Positions 15,578 to 45,264 of a DNA stretch of 64,000 nucleotides are shown here, one piece after another (position 1 is the first letter of the stretch; the number at the start of each line of letters is the position of its first letter). This DNA comes from a virus. The notes beneath the pieces were generated by a model. The model saw only the letters and a list, made by a program, of their open reading frames with translations, had not been told where the DNA came from and searched no databases. Location of the stretch: positions 1 through 64,000 of IMG/VR virus record IMGVR_UViG_3300017527_001400; one strand, given 5' to 3'. Both the position numbers and the translations under genes were made by a program.

Positions 15578-15853
15578 ATGACATCAAAACAAGTTGATAG
15601 ATTAATTGAAGAAATCGGCAATGTTGCATATAACTTAAAATATTTAGGAAATGGAAATGCTTCAACTCAATTTGGAGCAATTGAAGGCCATTCAATGCAA
15701 GTAAAGGAAGGGCTTGAAACCTTAGCCTCTGCAGTTTCAAGTGCTGGAGGAGAAATAAACATAAGTGATTTACCAACTGCAATCGAGGGTGCTGGTAGAG
15801 ATATTAAAGATGGGCTGCTATCCATAGCGGCTGCGATAAATGATGCGGGGTAA
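15578..15853 (+). CDS. hypothetical protein
   Basis: ORF with LKYLGNGNASTQFGAIE. Confidence 0.55.
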   Translation: MTSKQVDRLIEEIGNVAYNLKYLGNGNASTQFGAIEGHSMQVKEGLETLASAVSSAGGEINISDLPTAIEGAGRDIKDGLLSIAAAINDAG

Positions 15854-15922
15854 GGTAGTCTGGTCTAACCTAGGTGTCTCATAAGCACCTCTTCGCGGGT
15901 TCAAATCCCGCCCCCGCTTCCA
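15844..15922 (+). tRNA. tRNA with CAT anticodon (Met or Ile2)
   Basis: GGTGT-CTCATAA-GCACC anticodon arm, GGTTCAAATCC T-arm, CCA end. Confidence 0.85.
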
Positions 15923-19243: not shown

Positions 19244-19319
19244 GTGGCCGGAGGCATACGGGTACGCCGATAGACTGTGGCTCTATTGCAAGTGGGTTCG
19301 AGCCCCACCGGTCACCCCA
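19244..19319 (+). tRNA. tRNA-His(GTG)
   Basis: ATAGA-CTGTGGC-TCTAT arm, C73, CCA; base at -1 is T, not G. Confidence 0.85.
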
Positions 19320-19323
19320 CAAA

Positions 19324-19402
19324 AGCCCCTTGGTGAAGTGGCTTAACACGACGGGCCTTGGACCCGTAATTTTCCCAGGTTCGAATCCTGGAGGGGCTTC
19401 CA
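19324..19402 (+). tRNA. tRNA-Gln(TTG)
   Basis: ACGGG-CCTTGGA-CCCGT arm (C33), GGTTCGAATCC, CCA. Confidence 0.85.
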
Positions 19403-21324: not shown

Positions 21325-22101
21325 ATGGCAGGAAAGCTACACGAGCTCTTGGCGGTAGAAGGGGACCTCGAAGGAATCTGGAGGAAGGTTCTCGCTGAAG
21401 CACTCAACACATTCACCAAGAAGAAGAACCATTTCATCGGCTTTGTTCGTCCGCTCGTTATGTTTGCTGATGAACGGCAGAAAGAAAATACCACGGAGCA
21501 AGTTGCTCGGACTACTACTGTCCGTGAAAAACTTGCTTATGTCTGGGTCTCTACCATTCGCTACTTCAATGCGATCGCTCAAAAAGAAAGCACAAATCAA
21601 ACAGCCTGTGCTGATCTCGTGGTTGGTGGAAAGGTTCTGCTCCCACAGATGCCGGCTACTTTATTGCTTGGTTTGGAAAGCCGCTTGCGTCAAGTCCGCG
21701 AAGTATATGCAGGAATTCCTACGCTTCCACCGGGTATCGAATGGAAATTAGATCCTTCGGTGGCAGATGATGTCTATAAATCTGAGGTTCCAGAGGAAGC
21801 TTTCAAAACTGAAAAGGTTTTCAGGGCTCAGGTTTTATACGAAGCTAAGTTCCCCAAGGATGGGGAAGGTGGGTCTTCGTTGCCGGCTCAGGTCGAGAAA
21901 ATCGCTGAGACGGTAAACATCGGTTTGTATAAAAAGACGTATTGGGCTGGCATGCTGTCGACAGCAGAGAAGTCTGAGTTGCTTGAAAAAGTTGACGAAT
22001 TACTTCGCTCTGTCAAACAGGCCCGGCAGCGTGCCAACTCAACAAAGATCGTGAAGCTTGACATTGGCCAAGTTTTATACGATTATATCCATAAGCCCTA
22101 A
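21325..22101 (+). CDS. conserved phage coiled-coil protein (KLHELLAVE family)
   Basis: AAGGAGG RBS; PATLLLGLESRL, GIPTLPP, VKQARQRAN. Confidence 0.7.
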   Translation: MAGKLHELLAVEGDLEGIWRKVLAEALNTFTKKKNHFIGFVRPLVMFADERQKENTTEQVARTTTVREKLAYVWVSTIRYFNAIAQKESTNQTACADLVVGGKVLLPQMPATLLLGLESRLRQVREVYAGIPTLPPGIEWKLDPSVADDVYKSEVPEEAFKTEKVFRAQVLYEAKFPKDGEGGSSLPAQVEKIAETVNIGLYKKTYWAGMLSTAEKSELLEKVDELLRSVKQARQRANSTKIVKLDIGQVLYDYIHKP

Positions 22102-22220
22102 CCTTCGAAGAAACCCTTACGAGGCAAGGCTGTAACCACTGCTTAACGAAAGGAGTACATGATGTTCTATTGCATAGGAGGTGGCCCATTCTGGTAACTA
22201 TCTAAAGGAGGTGATCCAGA

Positions 22221-25225: not shown

Positions 25226-26486
25226 AAGACACTGCAAGAAGCTATTATGACCAAGTTAAAGACCAATATCCAGAATCTGGGATATTTAGAGCTTGCACCG
25301 GACTAACACATTTCTTGGTTGGCGGTGTCATGCATACCACTGTTAAGGAAAGTCGAAAAATAAAAGGTTTGTGGAATGCATGCAAAAAGGCAAAACGAAT
25401 GGCCATATGGCGAGATTTTTGGGCACCACACGAAGAAGAAACTGGAATAGCGTTTTGGGTAGAAAGACAATGAATAATTGTGTTTGTATAAAAGCTCGAG
25501 ATCCATTTCGCCTACTTCGTGTTTATGAGTATATACAGTCCGATGATATCATGCATGTTTATCATAAAACAGTTCATTTTGTAAGAACCCCGCCAAATTC
25601 GCAACGATGGGGATTGGCGTATGCTCCAAACGATGACAGTGGATATCACTTTGAAATTGAAATGAACGCATTTTACCATTATTTTAGGAAATTATGAATC
25701 TCTGGTGGGGATATATACACACTAATGATTCAAAGCAGGTGAAGAGGTTTTTCGATTGGCGAGACATCTCTGAAGCCGAGTGCAGTCCTTTTGTTTCCAA
25801 GGTTGTGAAGAAACCCTACTATGCCGAGAATAGGGCTGACGCGTTAATTAAACTCGAGGAGGAATTATGCTAAAACTTGTACTTTACACAATGCCAAAAT
25901 CAGGACGTTGGCGATGGAAGCTCATGCGGGCCGATAAATGTCTTGCCCGGGCTGATTATCACTGGGCCAATAAGTCGGCAGCCAAGACAGCCTTCAATGG
26001 TCTGGTGAAAAACATACAAAAGCTAGAAGGTAAGCCCGTCGCAATTGCAGAATAAACCGGGCCACCGTAAATAAAATCGACGTAAGCCAAATCACTCAAT
26101 TTTGAGTAAAATTACTCATTATTGAGTGATTTTTTGTTTTTGGAGGTACAAAACATGAATGTTGTCATAAAATTCCTTGCTGTAATAGGTGTTCTTGCAA
26201 TTATTTTCGCTGTTTATGCATATCATATGCCGACAGACAGCACAGATAAAGGTAGATGGAAAAGGTCCGGAATGCGTCTTCATGTGGACCAGGATACTGG
26301 CATAAACTATCTATCTACTCTTAGAGGTGGTCTCGTTCCAAGGCTCCACCCTGACGGCTCCTTGTACATCAGTACAACAAAGTAGTACACCTTCCATAGA
26401 CGAACCCGAATATCAGCCACAACATCTTGTATCTATTAGTTATTTCATTATAGATCTTATTTTTTTCTGGACTAACACGGAGAGAC

Positions 26487-30850: not shown

Positions 30851-32509
30851 ATGCTAAATGAATACCGACTTTTTGGGCCTCCGGGGACTGGAAAAACGAC
30901 AAGACTTGCAAAAGTGTCAATTCCAAAAGCTGTAAAGAAATACGGGTCTGATGGAGTTGTGGTAACGTCCTTTACAAAAGCTGCAGCAAAGCAAATAATC
31001 AGTAAAGGATTAGAGGTTGACGATAATTGTGTGGGGACTCTTCATTCTCTGTGCTACAGGGCTTTGGGTTTTCCAAAATTGACCGCCCAGGATAACTTCT
31101 CTGAAAAATGGAACACGGCATATCCGAGACTTCGGGTCTTTGGGTCTAAACTCGGATCCTTAGATGAAGGTGGTGTGAATGAGCGTGGTGATACTGATGG
31201 AGACTCGTTGCTGTATAAGATGGACATCGCAAGGGCGAAGATGATTCCAAAAGAAAAATGGTTTCAGCCTGTTGCCAGCTTTTATAACAAGTGGACGGCA
31301 TTCAAAAATCTTCATGCTGTAATGGATTTTACAGATCTTATAGAAGAAGTTGTTAAACAGGGCATACCGCCACCCGGAAAGGCGAAGGTAATGTTTGTGG
31401 ATGAAGCCCAAGACCTGACGCCTCTTCAATTAAGTTTAATCCGAGGTTGGGGAGAAAATATGGACTGGATCATGCTGGTTGGAGATGATGACCAAACCAT
31501 CTATTCTTTCACCGGTGCCAGTCCAGATGCCTTTCTGCAACCAGAAATACCAGACGACAGGAAAATGGTCCTTGATCAATCATATAGAGTGCCCATCTCT
31601 GTGCATAACGTTGCCAAGACTATTACGAATCGTATTAGATATCGTGAGGCCAAGGAATACAAGCCCAGACCTGAGAACGGAGCTGTTAGATCGATCGAAG
31701 AGACATATTCTGGCCCAGACGAAATAATCGATGACATCGAAAAGCAGTTGAAATTGAAAAGAACTGTTATGGTTTTGGCATCGTGTTCATATATGATTGA
31801 ACCGGTAAGGAAGGCACTGGTCGAAAACAACATGCCTTTCGGCAATAAATACAGGTCTACGAGAGGTGACTGGAATCCGCTCGCAAGAGGCGGTGAATCA
31901 AGGACATCCGCAAGAGACCTGCTATTTACATTCCTATCGAGTGGTTCGGATAATAAATATTGGAATGTACCACAGTTTGTAGCTTGGGCTTCACATATAG
32001 GAGTAGGGAAAAACGGCCTAAAGCGTGTTGTTGGTAAAAAGGTCCTGACTAAACTTAAAGAAGAGATCGAAAAGAACTCAAAAGGTCTCAACAGCACAGA
32101 GAACGTTTTAAGCTTGGCTCTTTCTGATGATGCTATAGAGCCGGCATTGGCCAGAGACGTAGACTGGCTGATGACAAGCCTGCTTCAGAAAAGAAGAAAG
32201 CCTCTTGAATATCCAATCAAGTTATATAAGAAATTCAAAACAAAAGACATTCTTGAAGGTCATCCGCCAATAACCATAGGAACGATCCATTCGGTAAAAG
32301 GAGGAGAATCTGATGTGGTTTATCTTTACCCAGATATATCAGCAGCTGCTGCAAGAGAGCAGGCAAATGGCGATATTTCTGAAGATTCTCTGTTTCGATT
32401 ATTTTATGTTGGTGTAACTCGAGCAAAACATGAGCTTGTTCTAATGTCACCATTAATGAAGAGATCTGGTAGAGGAAAGCAAAAATTAGCTTATTTTGTA
32501 GACATATAG
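30851..32509 (+). CDS. UvrD/Rep-family SF1 helicase
   Basis: GPPGTGKT, VDEAQD, VGDDDQTIY, QSYR, TIHSVKGGE, YVGVTRAK. Confidence 0.9.
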   Translation: MLNEYRLFGPPGTGKTTRLAKVSIPKAVKKYGSDGVVVTSFTKAAAKQIISKGLEVDDNCVGTLHSLCYRALGFPKLTAQDNFSEKWNTAYPRLRVFGSKLGSLDEGGVNERGDTDGDSLLYKMDIARAKMIPKEKWFQPVASFYNKWTAFKNLHAVMDFTDLIEEVVKQGIPPPGKAKVMFVDEAQDLTPLQLSLIRGWGENMDWIMLVGDDDQTIYSFTGASPDAFLQPEIPDDRKMVLDQSYRVPISVHNVAKTITNRIRYREAKEYKPRPENGAVRSIEETYSGPDEIIDDIEKQLKLKRTVMVLASCSYMIEPVRKALVENNMPFGNKYRSTRGDWNPLARGGESRTSARDLLFTFLSSGSDNKYWNVPQFVAWASHIGVGKNGLKRVVGKKVLTKLKEEIEKNSKGLNSTENVLSLALSDDAIEPALARDVDWLMTSLLQKRRKPLEYPIKLYKKFKTKDILEGHPPITIGTIHSVKGGESDVVYLYPDISAAAAREQANGDISEDSLFRLFYVGVTRAKHELVLMSPLMKRSGRGKQKLAYFVDI

Positions 32510-32585
32510 CGCCGACATGTTATATTAACCCTTTGGTGATAAGCGCCTATGTATACAATAAACTCGGTAGCAAAAAGCGCAGATA

Positions 32586-32617
32586 CCCGGCTCGTCTAGC
32601 AACCCATGGGAAACGAG
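32586..32617 (+). repeat. single TIGR-like unit
   Basis: CCC-ggctcgtct-AG-caac-CCA-tgggaaacg-AG just before ATG 32619. Confidence 0.55.
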
Positions 32618-32618
32618 T

Positions 32619-32840
32619 ATGAATTTAAGAAGAGAAAGATGCGGATTATGTATTCATTTTCGCCATCATGAAGACTTTAAACAGTTCAGGTTGGCTTATC
32701 AGTGTCAATACTATTATCTTTCATTTCAGCAAAGAAAATATGTGAATTGGAATACAAATAGATGCGAACGTTTTGAACGAAGCTTTAAGAGAATGATTAA
32801 ATACATTGCAAGGAATAGTAAATGTCGCCAATTACGCTAG
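32619..32840 (+). CDS. Cys-rich small protein (RCGLCxH family)
   Basis: RCGLCIH...C...CERF; paralogs at 34735 and 35124. Confidence 0.55.
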   Translation: MNLRRERCGLCIHFRHHEDFKQFRLAYQCQYYYLSFQQRKYVNWNTNRCERFERSFKRMIKYIARNSKCRQLR

Positions 32841-33122
32841 ACGTCGATGAAACAGGCGAAGTAGTACGAACAGATAGACCCAAGCAAGAAGTCGCTGAAA
32901 AAGAGCAATCAGATGCAATTCCGAAGTGTTTTAACACATTTCCGTGCGACCAGTTGACAAAAACGGATGATAAGTGCTACTGTAACGTCTCAAACGGGGC
33001 AATATACTCTCTGGATGAATGTCCAAGAGGATATTGGTATATACCAGAGAGACGAAAACCAAAGATTCAAAATCGAACTTCCTGGTATGAGGAAAATCAT
33101 AGGTTACGCCAGGAGGAAATCA

Positions 33123-33722
33123 ATGGGAAAAATCCTATGGACCGACACGGAGACGACGGGACTGGACTCAAAGAAAAACTCAGCGATTGAAATAGCTGCC
33201 ATTGTTGAAATCGATGAAGAAGTAAAAGATCAATTTTCAATCCAAATCAAACCACTTGAAAATAAAGAAATCAGCGATAGGGCTCTTGAAATAAATGGCC
33301 GCACCCGGGAGGAGATCGCCGAATTCACTCCAGTTGATCTTGCGATATTAAGCTTTAAGAAAAGGCTGGAAAAACATGTCAACAAATTCGACTCGTCAGA
33401 CAAATTTATTGTTGCAGGATATAATATTGGTTTCGACATAAACTTTATTCGAGCTCTTTTCCATGACGTCGGTGATAAGTATTATGGCAGTTACTTCTTT
33501 AATTGTCCTCTTGACGTCTACTCCGACGTTGCAAAGCTCGTGTCAAAAACAGATCTCAGACTCCCTAATTATAAGCTTAGCACAGTCTGTAACCATATTG
33601 GAATCGAGATTGATGCGCACGATCCAGTAAGCGACATAACTGCCACCCGGGAGCTTTATTATCGATTGCAAACAATGACTCCGAAATATGTTCGAAGAAA
33701 AAATCCAGTGACGGCCCAGTAG
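33123..33722 (+). CDS. DEDDh 3'-5' exonuclease (DnaQ-like)
   Basis: DTETTG, AGYNIGFD, AHDPVSDITAT; AGGAGG RBS before ATG 33123. Confidence 0.9.
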   Translation: MGKILWTDTETTGLDSKKNSAIEIAAIVEIDEEVKDQFSIQIKPLENKEISDRALEINGRTREEIAEFTPVDLAILSFKKRLEKHVNKFDSSDKFIVAGYNIGFDINFIRALFHDVGDKYYGSYFFNCPLDVYSDVAKLVSKTDLRLPNYKLSTVCNHIGIEIDAHDPVSDITATRELYYRLQTMTPKYVRRKNPVTAQ

Positions 33723-33831
33723 CTCCCAGAAAACCAACGCGCCAGAGGCCCTTAAAAGGGAAGGTACCCATTAGAGAAAAAGGCCCGCGCTAACCAAGTT
33801 ACCCAAAGAACGCTTGGCCATAAAGGAGTAG
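33713..33831 (+). repeat. TIGR-like array segment A (3.5 units, ~34-nt period)
   Basis: GGC-CCN-N9-AG-N4-CCA-N9-AG at 33713, 33747, 33782, 33816. Confidence 0.7.
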
Positions 33832-33834
33832 ACA

Positions 33835-34050
33835 ATGGAAGGATGGAAATGTCCAGTATGCGGAAGGGGTCTTGCACCATTTGTTAATGAATGCCCATGC
33901 TATAAAGTAGATACTGTACAAGATGGGATCTCATGTATAGATTATTATTGGGAAACTTGTCCATTATGTTGGGTTTCTCATAGAAGAGGTGAGCCATGTA
34001 ATTGCGGATCGGTTTATAGTAGTGGTTCAGCCCCCATGCCGGCCCATTGA
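33835..34050 (+). CDS. small Zn-ribbon protein lying inside the TIGR-like array
   Basis: GWKCPVCGRGLAPFVNECPC; its RBS lies within a repeat spacer. Confidence 0.65.
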   Translation: MEGWKCPVCGRGLAPFVNECPCYKVDTVQDGISCIDYYWETCPLCWVSHRRGEPCNCGSVYSSGSAPMPAH

Positions 34051-34264
34051 AAGAGAGCAATCCAAAGGATAGAAGGCCCTCGGAAACCAAGCAATCCATA
34101 AGACCCTAGGCCAGGAAGTTATATTAACACGGTACGCTGAAGCCTCAAGGGTCAAGTAATCCATAGGATAGTAGCTAAAATAGGCCCTCGGGAACCGAGC
34201 AATCCATAAGACCCTAGGCCACTATTTCGAAGCCATTGTTTAAGAGTAACCCTAAAGGAGGGAG
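34041..34264 (+). repeat. TIGR-like array segment B (5 units)
   Basis: CCN-N9-AG-YAAY-CCW-N9-AG; unit at 34075 is nearly duplicated at 34183. Confidence 0.75.
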
Positions 34265-34267
34265 CTT

Positions 34268-34591
34268 ATCCCAAGAAGAACCGAAAAGGCAGTTGTTAAG
34301 ACCATCAAAGATGCTCTGAATAGTCTCGATCATTGCATGATTAGAAAGCGAAGATTGTATATTAGAGGCGATCCCGACTTAACAGGTTGTTATCTTGGGA
34401 CACGGCTCGAGCTTGAAGTAAAAACAATCGGCGGTAGCCCGACATCACTACAACTCAAGCGAATTGACGACTGGCAAAAGCTCGGATGTGTCTCAGCAGT
34501 TGTCTGGTCATTAAGTGACGTTATTAAAGCGATGGATTCGATTCTTTTAAGTAAAGACAAGAAATTGCTTGCAAATATGATCGAAGACTGA
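34268..34591 (+). CDS. VRR-NUC nuclease
   Basis: GDPDLTGCYLG, LEVK, TSLQ, VVWS; the frame extends upstream (TEKAVVKTIKDAL) to an ATC after an RBS, so the start is uncertain. Confidence 0.75.
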   Translation: MPRRTEKAVVKTIKDALNSLDHCMIRKRRLYIRGDPDLTGCYLGTRLELEVKTIGGSPTSLQLKRIDDWQKLGCVSAVVWSLSDVIKAMDSILLSKDKKLLANMIED

Positions 34592-34696
34592 TATCTTCAA
34601 ATCTCTAACACGGAAAATTTAACATTTCCGCCTCTGATTCATTTCCTCGAAGCCCGTTTGCGTGGCAGCCGCAAGCGGGTTTCCCTCGTTATGGGC

Positions 34697-34732
34697 CCTA
34701 TTCAGGCTAGCAACCCTTATATATACAGGCCA
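34697..34732 (+). repeat. single TIGR-like unit
   Basis: CCT-attcaggct-AG-caac-CCT-tatatatac-AG-g-CCA before ATG 34735. Confidence 0.6.
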
Positions 34733-34734
34733 TT

Positions 34735-35010
34735 ATGAAAAAACCAAATATAAAAGTAAAAAGATGCGGATTCTGTAAACATTACAGGAAACTTCGCATT
34801 TCTATAAATGGAGTCACAAGCGGATACGGCCCAATCATAACATTCTGCAACTTCTATGGAGACGAGCCAGCCCTCGACATAAACCATAACAAGTCGGCAT
34901 GTGAAAACTTCAAACGAGATTTTAAGAAAACTGCTATATATATAATCAACACAAGGAGAAGCCGTTATGACAACCAAAAGAAACGAAGAAAACATCGAAA
35001 GGTTAGCTGA
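34735..35010 (+). CDS. Cys-rich basic protein (RCGxC family)
   Basis: RCGFCKH...FC...SACENFKRD. Confidence 0.55.
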   Translation: MKKPNIKVKRCGFCKHYRKLRISINGVTSGYGPIITFCNFYGDEPALDINHNKSACENFKRDFKKTAIYIINTRRSRYDNQKKRRKHRKVS

Positions 35011-35123
35011 TGAGGTGTTAGATAGCTGGGATATGGAGGCAACGCTTCATTATGCAAGAGAGCGCTTGATCTCCAATTATAAAGCTAACGAATCTTCATT
35101 CCAAGAGGATTGGAAAGCGATGA

Positions 35124-35570
35124 TTGGTTGATATGGATAAATATAAAAAAAGATGCGGCCTGTGTTCTCATTCTATAAAAAAATATTACATAGAAGACGA
35201 TCGAACCTATACTATAAGAGAATCTAATACATGCGACCTCTCTTTAACTCGAACCCGATATGTTGGCGATACAAAAGCTTCATGTAATAATTTTGCAATA
35301 GACATAAGGAAGCTCGCAAAATACCTGCATCGCATCGAAACGGATTCAAGATATAAGCTTATGAATAAGCGAGTCATAGGTCCAGACCCAATGCGAAGGC
35401 GATGTGGACTATGTTGTTCTTTTGTCAAACAATATAGCGGCTTCCATTATTATATAAAAGGGAAATGCAGAAGAAACATTAGAGGTCTTGTCGACCACAA
35501 CGAAGACGCATGTCGAAAATTCAGAAGAAGTAAAAAAAGAGTTGATGCATATATGAAAAAATGCCGTTAG
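35124..35570 (+). CDS. Cys-rich protein with two tandem RCGLC repeats
   Basis: RCGLCSH..ASCNNF and RCGLCCS..DACRKF. Confidence 0.55.
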   Translation: MVDMDKYKKRCGLCSHSIKKYYIEDDRTYTIRESNTCDLSLTRTRYVGDTKASCNNFAIDIRKLAKYLHRIETDSRYKLMNKRVIGPDPMRRRCGLCCSFVKQYSGFHYYIKGKCRRNIRGLVDHNEDACRKFRRSKKRVDAYMKKCR

Positions 35571-35638
35571 AAGTAAGTAACCCATGGCTAAAGAGCATTA
35601 TAAATACCATCCGGAATTAGCAATCCATCACAAACAAG
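35564..35638 (+). repeat. two TIGR-like units
   Basis: CCG-ttagaagta-AG-taac-CCA-tggctaaag-AG and CCA-tccggaatt-AG-caat-CCA-tcacaaaca-AG. Confidence 0.65.
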
Positions 35639-35884
35639 TATAACAAAAAGTCATAGTAACCATAACAAGCGGTAATACCACCCCAAAGAGTGCGGTGACG
35701 ACGAATCGCGGATTTTAAGCCCGAAGATCGTTGTTTTGGCGTAAAAATGCCCGAAAATCCGGTGTTTTTGCGCCTTTTTTTGCTAATTTTGGATGAAAAC
35801 GATGGACGAGGCCAGGGGAACGCAGGGTGAAGGGGTCTTTCTCGTGCAAACTCGGCGTAGTCAGACATAAAGTGGCTCGTAAAT

Positions 35885-35911
35885 TAAGGGGGGCGCCAGG
35901 GTAGGGGGGTT
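35885..35911 (+). repeat. 27-bp G-rich direct repeat, copy 1
   Basis: TAAGGGGGGCGCCAGGGTAGGGGGGTT, identical at 40130-40156. Confidence 0.85.
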
Positions 35912-36165
35912 AAATCTCGTTAAGCGAGAAAAGAGCCTTTGGAAATCGAACAAATACACATTGTAGACACAACTGAAACCTACTGACCCAACAAAACCAA
36001 GAAACACAGCACAAAGAAAGCCTCTCAAAGCCTATTGCTCTAATATTATTATGAATTCTTTTTTCGTTTCAGAGAATCTCAGGTAAAAAGGAGGGATAGA
36101 CATAAAAACCTACTCTGAAACTCAAAAAGAGCAACCCAAAACAATCAAATTCAAAGGAGTTAACA

Positions 36166-36555
36166 ATGGAAATCACAAGCGCACAGAAAGCCGGTCAGCA
36201 GTACTCATTCTACCCCAACGGCCCCGAACGCTCGAGAAGCTTCGTCGTGATCCCCCGTGAAATGATCGACATGACAGACATGGGTCACGTAAAAGCGAAG
36301 TGGAGCCGCGTGGTAGCCTTCGGTGATCTCGCGGAAGCCATCAACAAACTCATGGATGACGGAGTAACGTTGTTCAAAATTGGAAAGGGTCGCATCCGCA
36401 AGAACGATCTGGAGCTGGACGATGGAGAAATCCTGAAATCCAAAGAGATCGTTGCCAAAACCCTGGACATGAAGGGATTCACCAAACTGATGAACTCCAA
36501 GGCTATCAAAGGCTCTGGAATTTACTCAGGCGACGAAGTCCCTGACGCTGGCTAA
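36166..36555 (+). CDS. SSB-like OB-fold protein
   Basis: KWSRVVAFGDLAEAI...GRIR...SKEIVA resembles the SSB core. Confidence 0.6.
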   Translation: MEITSAQKAGQQYSFYPNGPERSRSFVVIPREMIDMTDMGHVKAKWSRVVAFGDLAEAINKLMDDGVTLFKIGKGRIRKNDLELDDGEILKSKEIVAKTLDMKGFTKLMNSKAIKGSGIYSGDEVPDAG

Positions 36556-39970: not shown

Positions 39971-40129
39971 AATGTATTACGCATGGATCGAAGATTTATT
40001 CGAAGTCTCAGGAATGAAATTCCATTTATTCCCAATACTGGAATACGCAGCCATCGCAGGGACCAGGATCTCATACAACGACTACTTCCTCGATTACACA
40101 GGAATTAACTGGAGGGCTTACCTATAGCA

Positions 40130-40156
40130 TAAGGGGGGCGCCAGGGTAGGGGGGTT
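40130..40156 (+). repeat. 27-bp G-rich direct repeat, copy 2
   Basis: Identical to 35885-35911. Confidence 0.85.
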
Positions 40157-40224
40157 TGCTCGACCGAGCGGTCGAAGGGACTTCCCTGCAGACAATCCGG
40201 CTTCTTCAGTACAAACAGGCTTTT

Positions 40225-40335
40225 CCCACCATCGAACGACCCAGTAACCAACCCAACCTTTCGATCACGCAGGCACTACCCACCATCGGACTTCCCAGTC
40301 ACCAACCCGGCTGTTCGATTACGCAGGCATCACTC
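40225..40335 (+). repeat. 54-bp tandem repeat (2 copies)
   Basis: CCCACCATCG..CCCAGT.ACCAACCC..TTCGATYACGCAGGCA at 40225 and 40279. Confidence 0.7.
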
Positions 40336-40442
40336 ACCCAAAGATCAAGACCAACCTCGCATGATTAGAGCGACCGGCTAAAAGACCGCCGTCGCTCTCA
40401 AAGCTCGGTACTTGCAGGATAACACAACTCAATTGAGCAGGT

Positions 40443-40863
40443 GATTCTCTCTACCGTTTCGATTTTCGATTTTTTCTGCAAGCTTTTTTTTCTCTCCTTG
40501 TTGAAGACAGGTTTTTGGTGACTACATTAGATTCCGGGAAGAACCGTGCCAGCCGGCGACAAGGCGAGCCCAGCGATGCACCGGTATATGAGGGTGTAAA
40601 ATCTAAGGATGTAAACAGAACATCCTTAGATTTTACACCCTCATATACCTGTCCCTTTGCGGGGGATAAGACATCGCCTTCGCATGCAACTTGCAAACAG
40701 AGCAAGTTGCACGCCAAGCCGATATCCCCCGCAAAGGCACTGCCCTGCTGGATCGCCGCCTGGCACGGTTCTTCCCTAGTGGGTTGATGTTAGTCACCAT
40801 AAACCTTCAACAAGGAGAGAAAAAATGCAGAAAAAATCGAAAATCGAAACGGTAGAGGGAATC
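40443..40863. repeat. ~420-bp branched (T-shaped) inverted repeat
   Basis: Outer arms pair; two inner hairpins each carry an AAACAGA loop. Confidence 0.85.
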
Positions 40864-41907: not shown

Positions 41908-43550
41908 CCTAGTGCCCAGGCCGTGCGGGTAAAAATATATCACCCGCCCCCTTCTGAGGACGTCGGACAAAATTAGCATGGCTGAAAGTCGACCCTAAAA
42001 AATATTTTTACATTTTTCTGAACTTTTAATTTTTTAAGGAAACCCAAAGCCAATGCGAAAAGCGATCTGCATCAGCCCAACCCAAAGATTCGAGGTCAAC
42101 CAGCTATATAGCTACGAAGTCACGATGGAATTCGAGGACTTATATGAACTTGGCAGACCGATGCCCATAAAGATAGAAACTAAAAAAATTTATATTGTTA
42201 ACGGGTTTCATTTTTCGCAATACGAATTTGACAAGACATTCAGGAAATTCATATGAAACGAGTCTTATGCTTTCAGCGATCGTTGCCATTCAAGGTAGGC
42301 GGATTATATAGATTCATAATAGAAGAATATCAGGACAGAACCTACTATTTAGTTTACATCGGCAAAAGCTATCATGCTTATTCCAAACAATACTTCAAAG
42401 ACCATTTCGTACCATTCATCCAATAGCCATCGGAGATAATATGCCAAGTTACAATGACACAGTAAACATCTTAAAGGACCGCATCAAGGTTCTAATCAAC
42501 GACAACCCGGAGATCCTACAAATCGACGATCCATGGAAGCTGTTCGATTTCGAGGCGCTCGTCGTCTCGGATCTCGACCCGTCCCTTTTCCAAGCACAGT
42601 GGGCCCTATCACGAGCCAAGCAAGAGTGGCGACAAACTCACGGATGAAGGCCCTCTGTATTCAATCGATCATACCGTTTCAAGTCGGCAACCTGTACAGG
42701 TGCACCAAGTTTTTGACACCGCTCGGAACAGCAGAAGCATGGTCGGTGTGGAATATCAGGCAACCAAATACTAAGGTAGGCGGATTATATAGATTCATAA
42801 TAGAAGAATATACAGATGGCGGATATAATTATATTATGTCCGTGAATACCTTCAACCAGTATTTCAGGAGATTCATATGAAAGACTACGATCAGGGCCGC
42901 AGAGACGGCTATGACAAAACAGTCGACGAATCTAAAGAAGCCAAAAACCCAAAGTACAAAGAGGGTGTCATCAAAGGTATACTGGAACGATTAAAGGAGG
43001 AAAAATGAAGACTATATTATCGATTGCCTTCATATATTTGTCTTTGATAGGCTTGGTAACCTTCTCCATGTTCATTATGCAGGAGGCACAGCAAACAACT
43101 CAATGGGCTCTGAGAATATCGGAGCCTGACTTATATATGAAAGGCCAGCAGCTGAACGAAACCTTGTTCAAGCGAATGCGCTTTCTAAACCACATAGCAT
43201 GGATAAATCCTTATGCCCACTTCGCATACAGATCGTACATCGAGAATCGGGGTCCTCATACCAAAAGTGTCAATGTTAATACGTCGACCGACACCACCGG
43301 ACCCTTATGTTCAATTAAGCAAAAGAGAAGCCAAACTTTTGACGTCCTTCTTAATTGAAGAGGGACGGCCATATAATTTCACACCCGCGGGCCACTCTCG
43401 CATAAAGCTTGTGGCTGCACGCAACATGCCTGACAATGTGGAGCCTATTCAAGGCTTCAAATGGAATATCACAGACAAACGCAAGATTATTGTACAGGTA
43501 ACCCAGTTTTTCAGGGATAACGTAATCATCTTTCACGGAAGGCTACCATA

Positions 43551-44449: not shown

Positions 44450-44481
44450 CCACAAAAGAGGAGAAACCCATGAGCATCGTG
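44450..44481 (+). promoter_or_regulatory. TIGR-like unit overlapping the RBS and start codon of the Nop-domain gene
   Basis: CCA-caaaagagg-AG-aaac-CCA-tgagcatcg-TG; ATG at 44470. Confidence 0.6.
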
Positions 44482-45264
44482 CTGAAAGCTATCGTCAGAG
44501 GCCATTACGACTTACAAAAACTAAGAATTCAGGCTGGGAATCGAATTATTGCGAATTTTCGGTCAAAATTGGACATTGCGCCGTCCGATAAGGCTGAAAA
44601 AGCTGCCTTATCGTCAATAAAGACCGAATTTGCGGCTCTACCAGCCATAAAGTCCAAGAAACACTTCAAAGGCACGCCAATAATTGCCGAATATCCGGAA
44701 TATGTGCTGGTTAAGAGCTACGTTGCCCTGTTGGAAAGCGAAAAACAAGTCATCAAAGAAATCACCCAGATCGTCAACGAACATCCGCTGTACATCTCGT
44801 TCCTATCCTCCATCAAGGGTATTGGTCCACTCATGACCGGGATCCTCCTGACAGAAATCGATATCTCCAAGGCCGATACGCCGGCAGCCCTGTGGAAATA
44901 TGCTGGACTTGACGTCACCTCAAAAGGTGAGGGCCGCTCCCGCCGGGCAGAGCATCTAGTCGACCGAGAATATACCAAGGCCGACGGAACTGTCGCCACA
45001 AAGAAATCCATTACCTATAATCCACGCCTGAAGACCAAACTTATGGGAGTCCTGGCACCATCCCTTATCAAACAGCAGTCTCCGGACTATGCTCCAGTTT
45101 ATTACGAATACAAAACCCGTCTCGAAACCAGTCGACCGGAAATGGTCAAAGGCCATATGCACATGATGGCCCTGCGATACATGACGAAGCGCTTCCTGAA
45201 GCATCTGTATTTGAATTGGAGGAAACTCGAAAATCTGTCGGTGACTGAACGATGGACATCGTAG
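44470..45264 (+). CDS. Nop-domain / IS110-C-terminal-like RNA-binding protein without nuclease (TasA-like)
   Basis: YDLQKLRIQAGNR coiled coil; FLSSIKGIGP, ALWKYAGL, YNPRLKT, KGHMHMMALRYMTKRFLKHLY; no N-terminal DEDD/RuvC or HNH domain. Confidence 0.75.
   Translation: MSIVLKAIVRGHYDLQKLRIQAGNRIIANFRSKLDIAPSDKAEKAALSSIKTEFAALPAIKSKKHFKGTPIIAEYPEYVLVKSYVALLESEKQVIKEITQIVNEHPLYISFLSSIKGIGPLMTGILLTEIDISKADTPAALWKYAGLDVTSKGEGRSRRAEHLVDREYTKADGTVATKKSITYNPRLKTKLMGVLAPSLIKQQSPDYAPVYYEYKTRLETSRPEMVKGHMHMMALRYMTKRFLKHLYLNWRKLENLSVTERWTS

What the first reader, a model, noticed from the sequence alone, without database searches (positions are those of the whole stretch)
32586..35638. Dispersed TIGR-like dual-spacer array interleaved with protein genes
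Seen: about 12 units of CCN-N9-AG-(yaay)-CCW-N9-AG, 34-nt period where tandem, at 32586, 33713-33831, 34041-34264, 34697, 35564 and 35607, with variable 9-nt spacers. Known: TIGR arrays have two ~9-nt spacers bounded by box C/D-like motifs and are bound by Nop-domain Tas proteins. Unusual here: box D reads AG, the units are split among intergenic gaps of a replication/accessory operon, and they lie 9-12 kb from the Tas-like gene.
Basis: partly seen in the sequence, partly recalled or inferred. Interest (0 to 1): 0.85.

Follow-up and report, generated by a model that had tools for sequence, protein, structure and literature searches.

The report
Scattered TIGR guide units in phage
A phage that encodes a nuclease-free TasA protein has no ordinary guide-RNA array; instead, about 13 dual-spacer TIGR-type units sit singly or in short runs between the genes of its replication operon, 9-22 kb from tasA, which may explain why many tas genes seem to lack an array.

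Summary
Twelve units lie at exactly the stated places (32582-35642, + strand). I found a 13th at 22093 and a half-unit over the tasA start codon.

Each unit reads box C (CCN), 9 nt, loop repeat AG-N4-CCA, 9 nt, box D (AG). Each is closed by a covarying 3-bp helix. Tandem units have a 34-nt period.

- **Enrichment:** the strict pattern gives 6 forward hits and 0 reverse or control hits in the 78-kb record. A half-unit pattern gives 12 hits against 1.0 expected.
- **The protein:** ORF 44470-45264 is a true Tas protein without a nuclease. It matches the TasR structure 9MTY at E 1e-14, and the top fold matches are TasR and TasH.
- **Relatives:** TasA relatives (33-49% identity) carry canonical 36-nt arrays beside tasA with the same AG/CCA boxes and near-identical loop repeats. 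AG as box D is therefore the clade norm, not an oddity.

What is unusual is the layout: no array, only intercistronic units that overlap stop codons and ribosome-binding sites. Related phages show the same habit (L041, L030, L038, and an in-frame array inside a primase gene).

No self-target was found, and no RNA data exist. My verdict is dispersed, mRNA-embedded tigRNA genes: a new variant of a known kind.

The parts
22093..22132 (+). U12: solitary unit. Closing helix AGC/GCT, box C CCT, spacer A AACCTTCGA, loop AGAAACCCT, spacer B TACGAGGCA, box D AG. It overlaps the stop codon of ORF 21325-22101.
32499..32526 (+). Sigma-70-like promoter match (TAGACA, 16 nt, TATATT, with TG) about 55 nt upstream of U0. 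A possible start of the unit-bearing transcript; this is a consensus match only.
32582..32621 (+). U0: solitary unit. Helix ATA/TAT, box C CCC, loop AGCAACCCA, box D AG. The 3' helix arm overlaps the ATG of ORF 32619.
32619..32840 (+). Embedded gene: 73-aa Cys-rich protein (KRCGxC...). Paralogue of ORFs 34735 and 35124.
33123..33722 (+). Embedded gene: DnaQ-like 3'-5' exonuclease (PF00929 E 1e-18; phrog_192). Its stop codon lies inside spacer A of U1. The overlapping ORF 32822-33190 upstream has no known family.
33712..33820 (+). U1-U3: run of three tandem units with six different spacers. Loops are AGAAAACCA, AGGTACCCA and AGTTACCCA, with shared edges AGGCCCN. U2 has a 10-nt spacer B and U3 has TG as box D. 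The run ends 3 nt before the ribosome-binding site of ORF 33835.
33835..34050 (+). Embedded gene: 71-aa zinc-ribbon-like protein. Its stop codon lies inside spacer A of U4.
34040..34113 (+). U4-U5: two tandem units with loop AGCAATCCA.
34139..34221 (+). U6-U7: diverged duplicate of the U4-U5 block, 108 nt downstream. U7 differs from U5 at 2 spacer positions. U6 has a degenerate edge and a weak closing helix (two standard pairs, A-U and G-C, in the helix columns).
34229..34268 (+). U8: unit with helix AAG/CTT, box C CCA and loop AGTAACCCT. Its spacer B, AAAGGAGGG, is the Shine-Dalgarno sequence of the next gene.
34268..34591 (+). Embedded gene: endonuclease (phrog_93 E 1e-12, matched from residue 5). 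The frame therefore starts upstream of the first ATG (34337), probably at ATC 34268.
34693..34732 (+). U9: solitary unit. Helix GGC/GCC, loop AGCAACCCT. It ends 3 nt before the ATG of ORF 34735.
34735..35570 (+). Embedded genes: Cys-rich paralogues 34735-35010 and 35124-35570, and small ORF 34967-35131.
35560..35642 (+). U10 (helix AATG/CATT, loop AGTAACCCA) and U11 (helix ATA/TAT, loop AGCAATCCA). U10 overlaps the stop codon of ORF 35124-35570.
35761..35784 (+). Terminator-like hairpin plus T run, 120 nt after the last unit. Consensus match only.
44450..44481 (+). U13: variant unit over the tasA translation start. It reads CCA, CAAAAGAGG, AGAAACCCA (the last A is the A of the ATG), TGAGCATCG, TG. 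It has no closing helix.
44470..45264 (+). tasA: 264-aa coiled-coil plus Nop-type domain with no nuclease domain.

Best explanation
These are dispersed genes for dual-spacer TIGR guide RNAs (tigRNAs) that belong to the phage's nuclease-free TasA.

The 13 units are not gathered in an array beside tasA. They sit in the sense orientation in the intercistronic gaps of the replication/nuclease operon, singly or in runs of 2-5. Each unit is box C (CCN), 9-nt spacer A, 9-nt loop repeat (AG-N4-CCA), 9-nt spacer B, box D (AG). The two ends are brought together by a 3-4 bp helix. In tandem runs the two helix arms collapse into the palindrome GGCC, which gives a 7-nt edge (AGGCCCN) and a 34-nt period instead of 36.

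Inferred mechanism:
1. The units are co-transcribed with the mRNA.
2. A TasA dimer binds the box C/D pairs.
3. The units are cut out, either by TasA's own C-terminal loop or by a host RNase.
4. The resulting 34-40-nt RNAs guide TasA to DNA sites that pair with spacer A on one strand and spacer B on the other.
5. TasA has no nuclease, so it blocks transcription or replication rather than cutting.

Several units overlap a stop codon, a Shine-Dalgarno sequence or a start codon. Excision or TasA binding probably also sets the fate of the flanking cistrons.

Shown: the anatomy, the enrichment, the helix covariation, the identity of TasA, and the same boxes and loops in relatives' canonical arrays. 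Inferred: transcription, processing, binding and DNA targeting.
For: **Anatomy and enrichment**
- Strict pattern: 6 forward, 0 reverse, 0 in controls, in 78 kb.
- Half-unit pattern: 12 hits against 1.03 expected, all on the + strand.
- Boxes are invariant and spacers variable in a gap-free alignment.

**Closing helix**
- 35 of 36 cells are paired at the three inner pairs.
- 5 of 12 units carry both-side changes at each of those pairs (helix arms GGC/GCC, AGC/GCT, ATA/TAT, ATG/CAT, AAG/CTT).
- The covariation score is 0.848 against 0.241 in shuffles (0 of 500 reach it). Slid controls score 0.144 or less.

**TasA identity**
- PF02371, E 7e-6.
- phmmer: TasR 9MTY at E 1.2e-14 and TasH at E 7e-6. 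9MTY is the TasR-tigRNA-DNA complex.
- AlphaFold2 model with mean pLDDT 88.
- Foldseek top hits: TasR (E 6e-9, TM 0.64), then TasH, then the IS621 recombinase.

**Relatives (33-49% identity)**
- They carry canonical 36-nt arrays beside tasA, on the tasA strand, with AG/CCA boxes and loops AGACAACCA, AGAAACCCA and AGAAATCCA.

**Dispersal recurs in relatives**
- L041 has eight solitary units in successive intercistronic gaps, each with a 5-8 bp covarying stem.
- L030 has a solitary unit 9.6 kb from tasA with the same loop as its proximal units.
- L038's array lies about 6 kb from tasA.
- The L009 phage has a homologous primase (38% identity). It holds a 3-unit array in frame in the primase linker and a solitary unit after the primase stop codon, 13-15 kb upstream of tasA.

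**Negative control**
- The only helicase relative (L065) has no tasA in its record and no units.

**Published function**
- TasA proteins are reported to act as RNA-guided transcriptional repressors (bioRxiv 10.64898/2026.09.09.750476).
Against: - There is no RNA evidence of any kind for transcription, processing or TasA binding.
- No target was found. All 13 spacer pairs were searched as 18-mers in both possible geometries, with up to 3 mismatches, in the 64-kb window. This gave 0 hits plus one 3-mismatch hit at chance level.
- U5 and U7 are near-duplicates, and U6 is degenerate, so some units may be decaying.
- The closing helix is only 3 bp and would not be stable without protein.
- The 7-nt edge differs from every characterised 8-12-nt edge repeat.
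- Correspondence of TasA's conserved Tyr and His residues to the published Y/H processing dyad is not established.
- The record is only 86% complete, so a canonical array could lie in the missing part.
Confidence: 0.7

Rival explanations
1. The units are cis-acting TasA operators rather than guides. TasA binds or cuts them in the polycistronic mRNA to control stability and translation of the neighbouring cistrons, and of its own mRNA. The 'spacers' are then merely unconstrained filler or translation signals. This can coexist with the guide role.
For: - Units overlap translation signals. The 3' helix arm of U0 contains the ATG of ORF 32619. Spacer B of U8 is the Shine-Dalgarno sequence of the endonuclease gene. 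U9 ends 3 nt before an ATG, and U3 ends 3 nt before a ribosome-binding site.
- U13 covers the tasA ribosome-binding site and ATG.
- The same layout occurs in L031, and the arrays of L007 and L024 run right up to the tasA ATG.
- No DNA target was found.
Against: - Runs of 2-5 units (U1-U3, U4-U8) are more than an operator needs.
- Spacer lengths are held at exactly 9 nt, as in guide-bearing arrays.
- Relatives with the same boxes have long canonical arrays, which are established guide sources.
- U11 and U12 are not next to a start site.
Confidence: 0.15
2. The units are decaying relics of a once-contiguous TIGR array that was broken up by gene insertions and rearrangements. They are no longer functional.
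For: - U6 has a degenerate edge.
- U13 lacks a helix and has TG for box D.
- U5 and U7 are duplicates.
- There is no array beside tasA.
Against: - Box positions are invariant in 12 of 12 aligned units.
- The closing helix is kept through compensatory changes, which requires selection.
- tasA is intact with a confident fold.
- The same scattered layout, with longer covarying stems, occurs in an independent, 100%-complete phage genome.
Confidence: 0.07
3. The units are DNA-level elements: protein-binding iterons of the replication module, or single-strand-folding recombination sites that bound gene cassettes, integron-like. They are unrelated to RNA guiding.
For: - They lie in a replication module (helicase, exonuclease, endonuclease, SSB).
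- A small gene followed by a structured repeat recalls cassette arrays, both here and in L041.
Against: - The match to the clade-specific tigRNA boxes and loop repeats would be a coincidence.
- The units are strictly in the sense orientation and co-occur with tasA.
- TasA lacks any recombinase or nuclease domain.
- No integrase lies next to the region, as far as the Pfam scans of neighbouring ORFs show.
Confidence: 0.05

Closest known systems
Dual-repeat TIGR-TasA systems of phages (Faure et al. 2025, PMC12045711), as seen in related loci L007, L011 and L032
   Same: Nuclease-free Nop-domain TasA. Unit of edge, 9-nt spacer A, 9-nt loop repeat, 9-nt spacer B. Box D and box C are the same in edge and loop (AG ... 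CCA). Loop repeats are nearly identical. Units lie on the tasA strand. A terminal unit runs into the tasA start.
   Different: Here there is no long tandem array and no array beside tasA. Runs have 1-5 units, lie 9-22 kb upstream and are separated by protein genes. The edge is 7 nt (AGGCCCN) or is replaced by unique 3-4 bp helices. The period is 34 nt, not 36.
Stem-loop TIGR arrays (Faure 2025; Xu et al. 2026, bioRxiv 10.64898/2026.09.09.750476)
   Same: Each unit is closed by complementary flanks that vary between units. Units can stand apart from each other. Sub-arrays separated by non-array DNA are known, as are units inside the tas coding sequence.
   Different: Stems here are only 3-4 bp, against 5-8 bp in L041's solitary units. 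The loop repeat is conserved, as in dual-repeat arrays. No general CUU motif is present at the stem base. The TasA belongs by sequence to a clade whose other members have dual-repeat arrays. The units lie between unrelated genes, not around or inside tas.
Archaeal and eukaryotic box C/D s(no)RNA genes (from my own knowledge of the field; the comparison is also drawn in PMC12045711)
   Same: Two short guides bounded by box C/D-type motifs and bound by a Nop-domain protein dimer. Genes are dispersed through the genome and embedded in, or overlapping, host transcripts, from which they are excised.
   Different: No K-turn boxes (RUGAUGA/CUGA), no L7Ae or fibrillarin partner, and the expected target is DNA rather than RNA. 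A functional analogy in genomic layout only.
IS110/IS621 bridge RNA recombinases
   Same: Homologous RNA-binding domain (PF02371 hit; Foldseek hit to 8WT6). Split guides pair with both DNA strands.
   Different: No RuvC-like or Tnp catalytic domains, no transposon ends, and many small units instead of one bridge RNA.

Membership tests
TIGR-Tas (general) | A Tas protein with a Nop-type RNA-binding domain and a coiled-coil dimerisation region | tested here: met
   PF02371, E 7e-6. phmmer to TasR 9MTY at E 1.2e-14 and to TasH at E 7e-6. AlphaFold2 model with pLDDT 88, with a long N-terminal helix (2-34) and further helices at 40-56 and 75-102. Foldseek top hits are TasR and TasH, probability 1.00. 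No nuclease domain, so it is TasA.
TIGR-Tas (general) | RNA units with two 8-12-nt spacers, each bounded by a box C upstream and a box D downstream, with the same boxes at both spacers | tested here: met
   CCN, 9 nt, AG ... CCA, 9 nt, AG in 12 aligned units, with the box columns invariant. The boxes are identical to those of relatives' arrays.
TIGR-Tas, dual-repeat class | Alternating conserved edge and loop repeats of 8-12 nt in a long tandem array (typically 5-15 or more units) | tested here: not met
   The loop repeat is conserved at 9 nt. The edge is 7 nt, or is replaced by unique flanks. The longest strictly tandem run is 3 units, and 5 units lie within the 230-nt gap 34040-34268.
TIGR-Tas, dual-repeat class | Array located directly upstream or downstream of tas | tested here: not met
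   Only a half-unit lies at the tasA start (44450-44481). All other units are 8.8-22 kb upstream. No further cluster exists anywhere in the 78-kb record. Caveat: the record is 86% complete.
TIGR-Tas, dual-repeat class | C-terminal Y/H loop of Tas that cuts the edge repeat | tested here: inconclusive
   Y207, Y211 and Y214 are invariant and H229 is nearly invariant in 12 clade members. Equivalence to SpTasH Y289/H296 could not be established by alignment.
TIGR-Tas, stem-loop class | Variable palindromic flanks that close each unit into a stem-loop | tested here: met
   A 3-bp helix with 35 of 36 cells paired and compensatory changes in 5 of 12 units; 0 of 500 shuffles reach the score. It is much shorter than the published stems and than L041's.
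TIGR-Tas, stem-loop class | Conserved CUU at the stem base that marks the processing site | tested here: not met
   Only U8 has CTT directly after box D.
TIGR-Tas (general) | Units are transcribed, processed to about 36-nt RNAs and bound by Tas | not testable with these tools
   There is no expression data for this metagenomic virus.
TIGR-Tas (general) | DNA targets that pair with spacer A on one strand and spacer B on the other | tested here: inconclusive
   No match with up to 3 mismatches in the 64-kb window in either geometry, apart from one chance-level hit. The host genome is unknown.
Box C/D sRNA | K-turn-forming boxes C (RUGAUGA) and D (CUGA) | tested here: not met
   The boxes are CCN and AG. 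No Rfam family reaches its gathering score in the region.

The most novel reading that the evidence does not exclude
In a sizeable fraction of the many tas loci that seem to lack an array, the guides are not missing. They are scattered as solitary, mRNA-embedded units between (or in frame within) unrelated genes many kb from tas. These units do double duty. TasA-dependent excision yields guide RNAs and, at the same time, cuts the polycistronic mRNA at defined points next to start codons, coupling guide supply to expression of the replication genes and of tasA itself. This would be a viral counterpart of host-gene-embedded snoRNAs, and a plausible organisational bridge between TIGR arrays and dispersed box C/D RNAs.
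Probability: 0.3. Interest if true: 0.8.

Novelty: new variant of a known kind. Interest (0 to 1): 0.68.

Why it matters
**Array detection.** TIGR-Tas was described only in 2025. Arrays are currently sought within a few kb of tas, and were found at only 6,685 of 20,096 tas loci. The authors call apparently arrayless systems an open question. This phage shows concretely that a TasA can be served by units scattered over 22 kb, inside an operon of unrelated genes. Array finders should therefore scan whole genomes and accept solitary units.

**Unit architecture.** The units are a natural hybrid of the two known classes: a conserved loop repeat, with a 3-bp helix or palindromic mini-edge. This bears on how one class turns into the other.

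**Link to gene expression.** Units that overlap stop codons, Shine-Dalgarno sequences and start codons suggest a link between guide biogenesis and mRNA processing or translation. That link has not been examined.

**Array growth.** The diverged duplicate block (U4-U5 and U6-U7) gives a hint of how arrays grow without any adaptation machinery.

Tried and rejected
- **Self-targets.** Each of 13 spacer pairs was searched in the window as an 18-mer with up to 3 mismatches. I inferred the first geometry, spacer A + rc(spacer B), from the published 8-nt 3' overhangs. It gave 0 hits. The opposite geometry gave one 3-mismatch hit at 43123, and 9 of 100 shuffles do as well. I reject self-regulation within the first 64 kb. 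The last 14 kb and the host were not searched for targets.
- **Megablast against phage records.** The 17 kb around the region gave no match.
- **Sequencing runs.** None was listed for 32500-36200, and no RNA holder was listed.
- **Rfam.** Only three tRNAs in the window; nothing in the region.
- **Tandem Repeats Finder.** It does not see the units, because too little of each unit is conserved.
- **The 54-nt tandem hairpins at 40225-40329.** I considered them as stem-loop tigRNAs and rejected them: the loops are too short for two spacers and lack the boxes.
- **The hit at 25797.** It has all the boxes but lies inside a small ORF. About one such chance hit is expected, so I left it open.
- **The lone loop-like motif at 36130.** It lacks both boxes and was rejected.
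- **U5/U6 complementarity.** The 6-nt complementarity between spacer B of U5 and spacer A of U6 is at chance level.
- **Scripts.** The Python machine was lost. All statistics therefore come from the tools' own shuffles and controls.


Full report
**What is there**

The window is the first 64 kb of a 78,408-b linear IMG/VR virus record, estimated 86% complete. Genes from about 26 to 53 kb all run on the + strand.

Between 32.5 and 35.7 kb lies a replication/nuclease module. It holds:
- a UvrD-type helicase (30851-32509);
- a DnaQ-like exonuclease (33123-33722);
- a phrog_93 endonuclease (about 34268-34591);
- several tiny zinc-ribbon or Cys-rich proteins.

An SSB gene follows at 36166.

**Anatomy of a unit**

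The clade's canonical arrays guided the parsing. A unit is box C (CCN), a 9-nt spacer A, a 9-nt loop repeat AG-N4-CC(A/T), a 9-nt spacer B, then box D (AG; TG in U3).

A gap-free alignment of 12 units (40 columns including 4-nt flanks) has 8 invariant columns. These are exactly the box positions, and the spacer columns are variable.

The three flank positions next to the boxes pair across the unit. Seven units use GGC/GCC. The others use AGC/GCT, ATA/TAT (twice), ATG/CAT and AAG/CTT, and U6 has only a weak helix (two standard pairs). The numbers:
- 35 of 36 cells are paired.
- 5 of 12 units carry changes on both sides at each pair.
- The covariation score is 0.848 against 0.241 in shuffles (0 of 500 reach it).
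- Sliding the partner by 1-3 columns gives 0.144 or less.

In tandem runs the two arms overlap in the palindrome GGCC. This explains the short 7-nt edge AGGCCCN and the 34-nt period.

**More than chance**

- The strict pattern gives 6 forward hits, and none on the reverse strand or in either reversed-pattern control, in the whole record.
- The relaxed pattern finds 12 distinct units within 3.05 kb. It leaves about ten further forward hits in the other 75 kb. One of these is the additional unit U12 and another is the unresolved hit at 25797; the rest are comparable to the controls.
- A half-unit pattern gives 12 hits, all on the + strand, against 1.03 expected.

These scans added U12 (22093-22132), which overlaps the stop codon of ORF 21325-22101. 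They also added a variant unit over the tasA translation start (44450-44481).

**The protein**

ORF 44470-45264 (264 aa) is a Tas protein:
- It hits Pfam Transposase_20 (the IS110 C-terminal domain), one of the profiles used to discover Tas proteins.
- It matches the TasR chain of 9MTY at E 1.2e-14 and TasH at E 7e-6. 9MTY is the TasR-tigRNA-DNA complex.
- An AlphaFold2 model built on 12 clade members has mean pLDDT 88.
- Its best PDB fold matches are TasR, then TasH, then the IS621 bridge-RNA recombinase.

The model consists of the long helices and the Nop-type domain only. It is therefore a TasA.

**The test from relatives**

Fifty-seven IMG/VR loci encode relatives at 33-49% identity. Most have long canonical 36-nt dual-repeat arrays directly beside tasA, on its strand. 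Examples:
- L007: edge AGCGAGCCA, loop AGACAACCA.
- L011: edge AGTGAACCA, loop AGAAACCCA.

The pattern CCA-N9-AG-N4-CCA-N9-AG hits about 45 of the 57 loci. So box D = AG and box C = CCA are the rule in this clade. The window's loops (AGCAATCCA, AGCAACCCA, AGTAACCCA, AGAAAACCA) fall within the clade's loop consensus.

This is independent support that the window's units are cognate to its TasA.

**Dispersal is a recurring habit of the clade**

- **L041** (contig 100% complete). Besides large arrays on both sides of tasA, eight solitary units each occupy the gap between one stop codon and the next ribosome-binding site, over ±6 kb. They are closed by 5-8-bp stems with compensatory changes: 93.8% of cells paired, 5 of 8 pairs with changes on both sides.
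- **L030.** A solitary unit lies 9.6 kb from tasA with the same loop as its two proximal units.
- **L038.** The array lies about 6 kb from tasA.
- **The L009 phage.** Its TasA is 47% identical, and its primase is homologous to the window's (38% identity, E 7e-37). It has a three-unit array read in frame as (SEP)xxx(SNP)xxx inside the primase interdomain linker. It also has a solitary unit immediately after the primase stop codon. Both lie 13-15 kb upstream of tasA.
- **Negative control.** The only detectable relative of the window's helicase lies in a record without tasA, and there are no units in 13.7 kb around that gene. This is one incomplete datapoint.

**Relation to translation signals**

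- Units overlap the stop codons of the upstream genes (U1, U4, U10, U12).
- Units overlap or abut downstream start sites. The 3' helix arm of U0 contains the ATG of ORF 32619. Spacer B of U8 is the Shine-Dalgarno sequence of the endonuclease gene. The PHROG match for that gene begins at residue 5 of a frame opened at ATC 34268. U9 ends 3 nt before an ATG.
- At tasA, the Shine-Dalgarno sequence lies across spacer A and the loop repeat, and the ATG begins with the last base of the loop repeat.
- L031 has the same layout, and the upstream arrays of L007 and L024 end at the tasA ATG.
- A promoter-like site (32499-32526) and a terminator-like site (35761-35784) bracket the 12 units. These are consensus matches only.

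**Mechanism**

Most likely (about 0.7), the units are genuine TasA-cognate RNA elements that yield dual-spacer guides. They would be co-transcribed with the operon, bound by a TasA dimer at the box pairs and excised. They would then direct DNA binding without cleavage, as shown for other TasA proteins.

A cis-regulatory role on the flanking cistrons is a serious rival and may well coexist. The relic and DNA-site readings fit the selection signatures poorly.

Not shown: transcription, processing, binding and targets.
- No self-target exists in the window in either geometry.
- The TasA keeps conserved Tyr and His residues in its C-terminal region. I could not equate them with the SpTasH Y289/H296 dyad.

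**Comparison and novelty**

The system works like a TIGR-TasA system. It meets the family's general criteria: the protein, the dual spacers and the shared boxes. It fails two criteria of the dual-repeat class, namely a long tandem array and an array adjacent to tas. It meets the stem-loop criterion only in miniature.

The papers I read describe arrays upstream, downstream or inside tas, and sub-arrays about 450 nt apart. They do not describe solitary units between unrelated genes many kb away. They leave the loci without a detected array as an open question.

I rate this a new variant of a known kind, with interest 0.68.

**Caveats**

- The script machine failed, so no custom statistics were possible.
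- The record is incomplete.
- The host is unknown.

Noticed in passing
window 32619-32840, 34735-35010, 35124-35570: A family of small Cys-rich paralogues (N-terminal K-R-C-G-x-C-x-H, later C..F.R). There are four copies in three ORFs, all lying between TIGR units, with no Pfam or PHROG match. Their 5' ends share a conserved DNA stretch (repeat families D2 and D4).
   Followed up: partly
window 35888-35909 and 40133-40154: An identical 22-nt G-rich element (GGGGGGCGCCAGGGTAGGGGGG) occurs twice on the + strand, in two long non-coding stretches (35640-36165 and 40020-40825). No shuffle gives a match. Its function is unknown.
   Followed up: partly
window 40225-40329: Two tandem 54-nt copies, each able to form a 6-7-bp hairpin (ATCGAA.../...TTCGAT) with a G-U change in the second copy. 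These are not TIGR units.
   Followed up: partly
window 25797-25828: A sequence with all the unit features (CCA, 9 nt, AGAAACCCT, 9 nt, AG) lies inside a small ORF (about 25695-25870). It is either the one chance hit expected or an intragenic unit like those in the L009 phage's primase.
   Followed up: partly
L064 2814-2917 (minus strand), i.e. G005:C1:53313-53416: In a related phage, a three-unit dual-repeat TIGR array is translated in frame as a Ser/Pro-rich linker (SEP xxx SNP xxx) inside a 639-aa primase-like protein. The linker is about 58 aa longer than in the window's homologous primase. Intragenic arrays have been reported inside tas genes, but I found none reported inside another gene.
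   Followed up: partly
L041 alignment row in A3 (columns about 329-334): The TasA of L041, the phage with long-stemmed solitary units, has PGRINN where the rest of the clade has KGHRHN. It therefore lacks the nearly invariant His. [quoted passage not shown]
   Followed up: no
window 34268: The endonuclease gene appears to start at a non-canonical codon (ATC), 6 nt after a strong Shine-Dalgarno sequence. The first ATG is 69 nt further in, but homology begins upstream of it.
   Followed up: partly
window 15844-15919, 19244-19316, 19324-19399: Three tRNA genes on the + strand.
   Followed up: no
window 34040-34221: The block U4-U5 plus its linker is duplicated 108 nt downstream as U6-U7. There are 2-nt differences in some spacers, and one spacer is wholly replaced. 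Similar near-duplicate units occur in L011's array (11260/11332, 11007/11404). This suggests arrays grow by local duplication and then diverge.
   Followed up: partly
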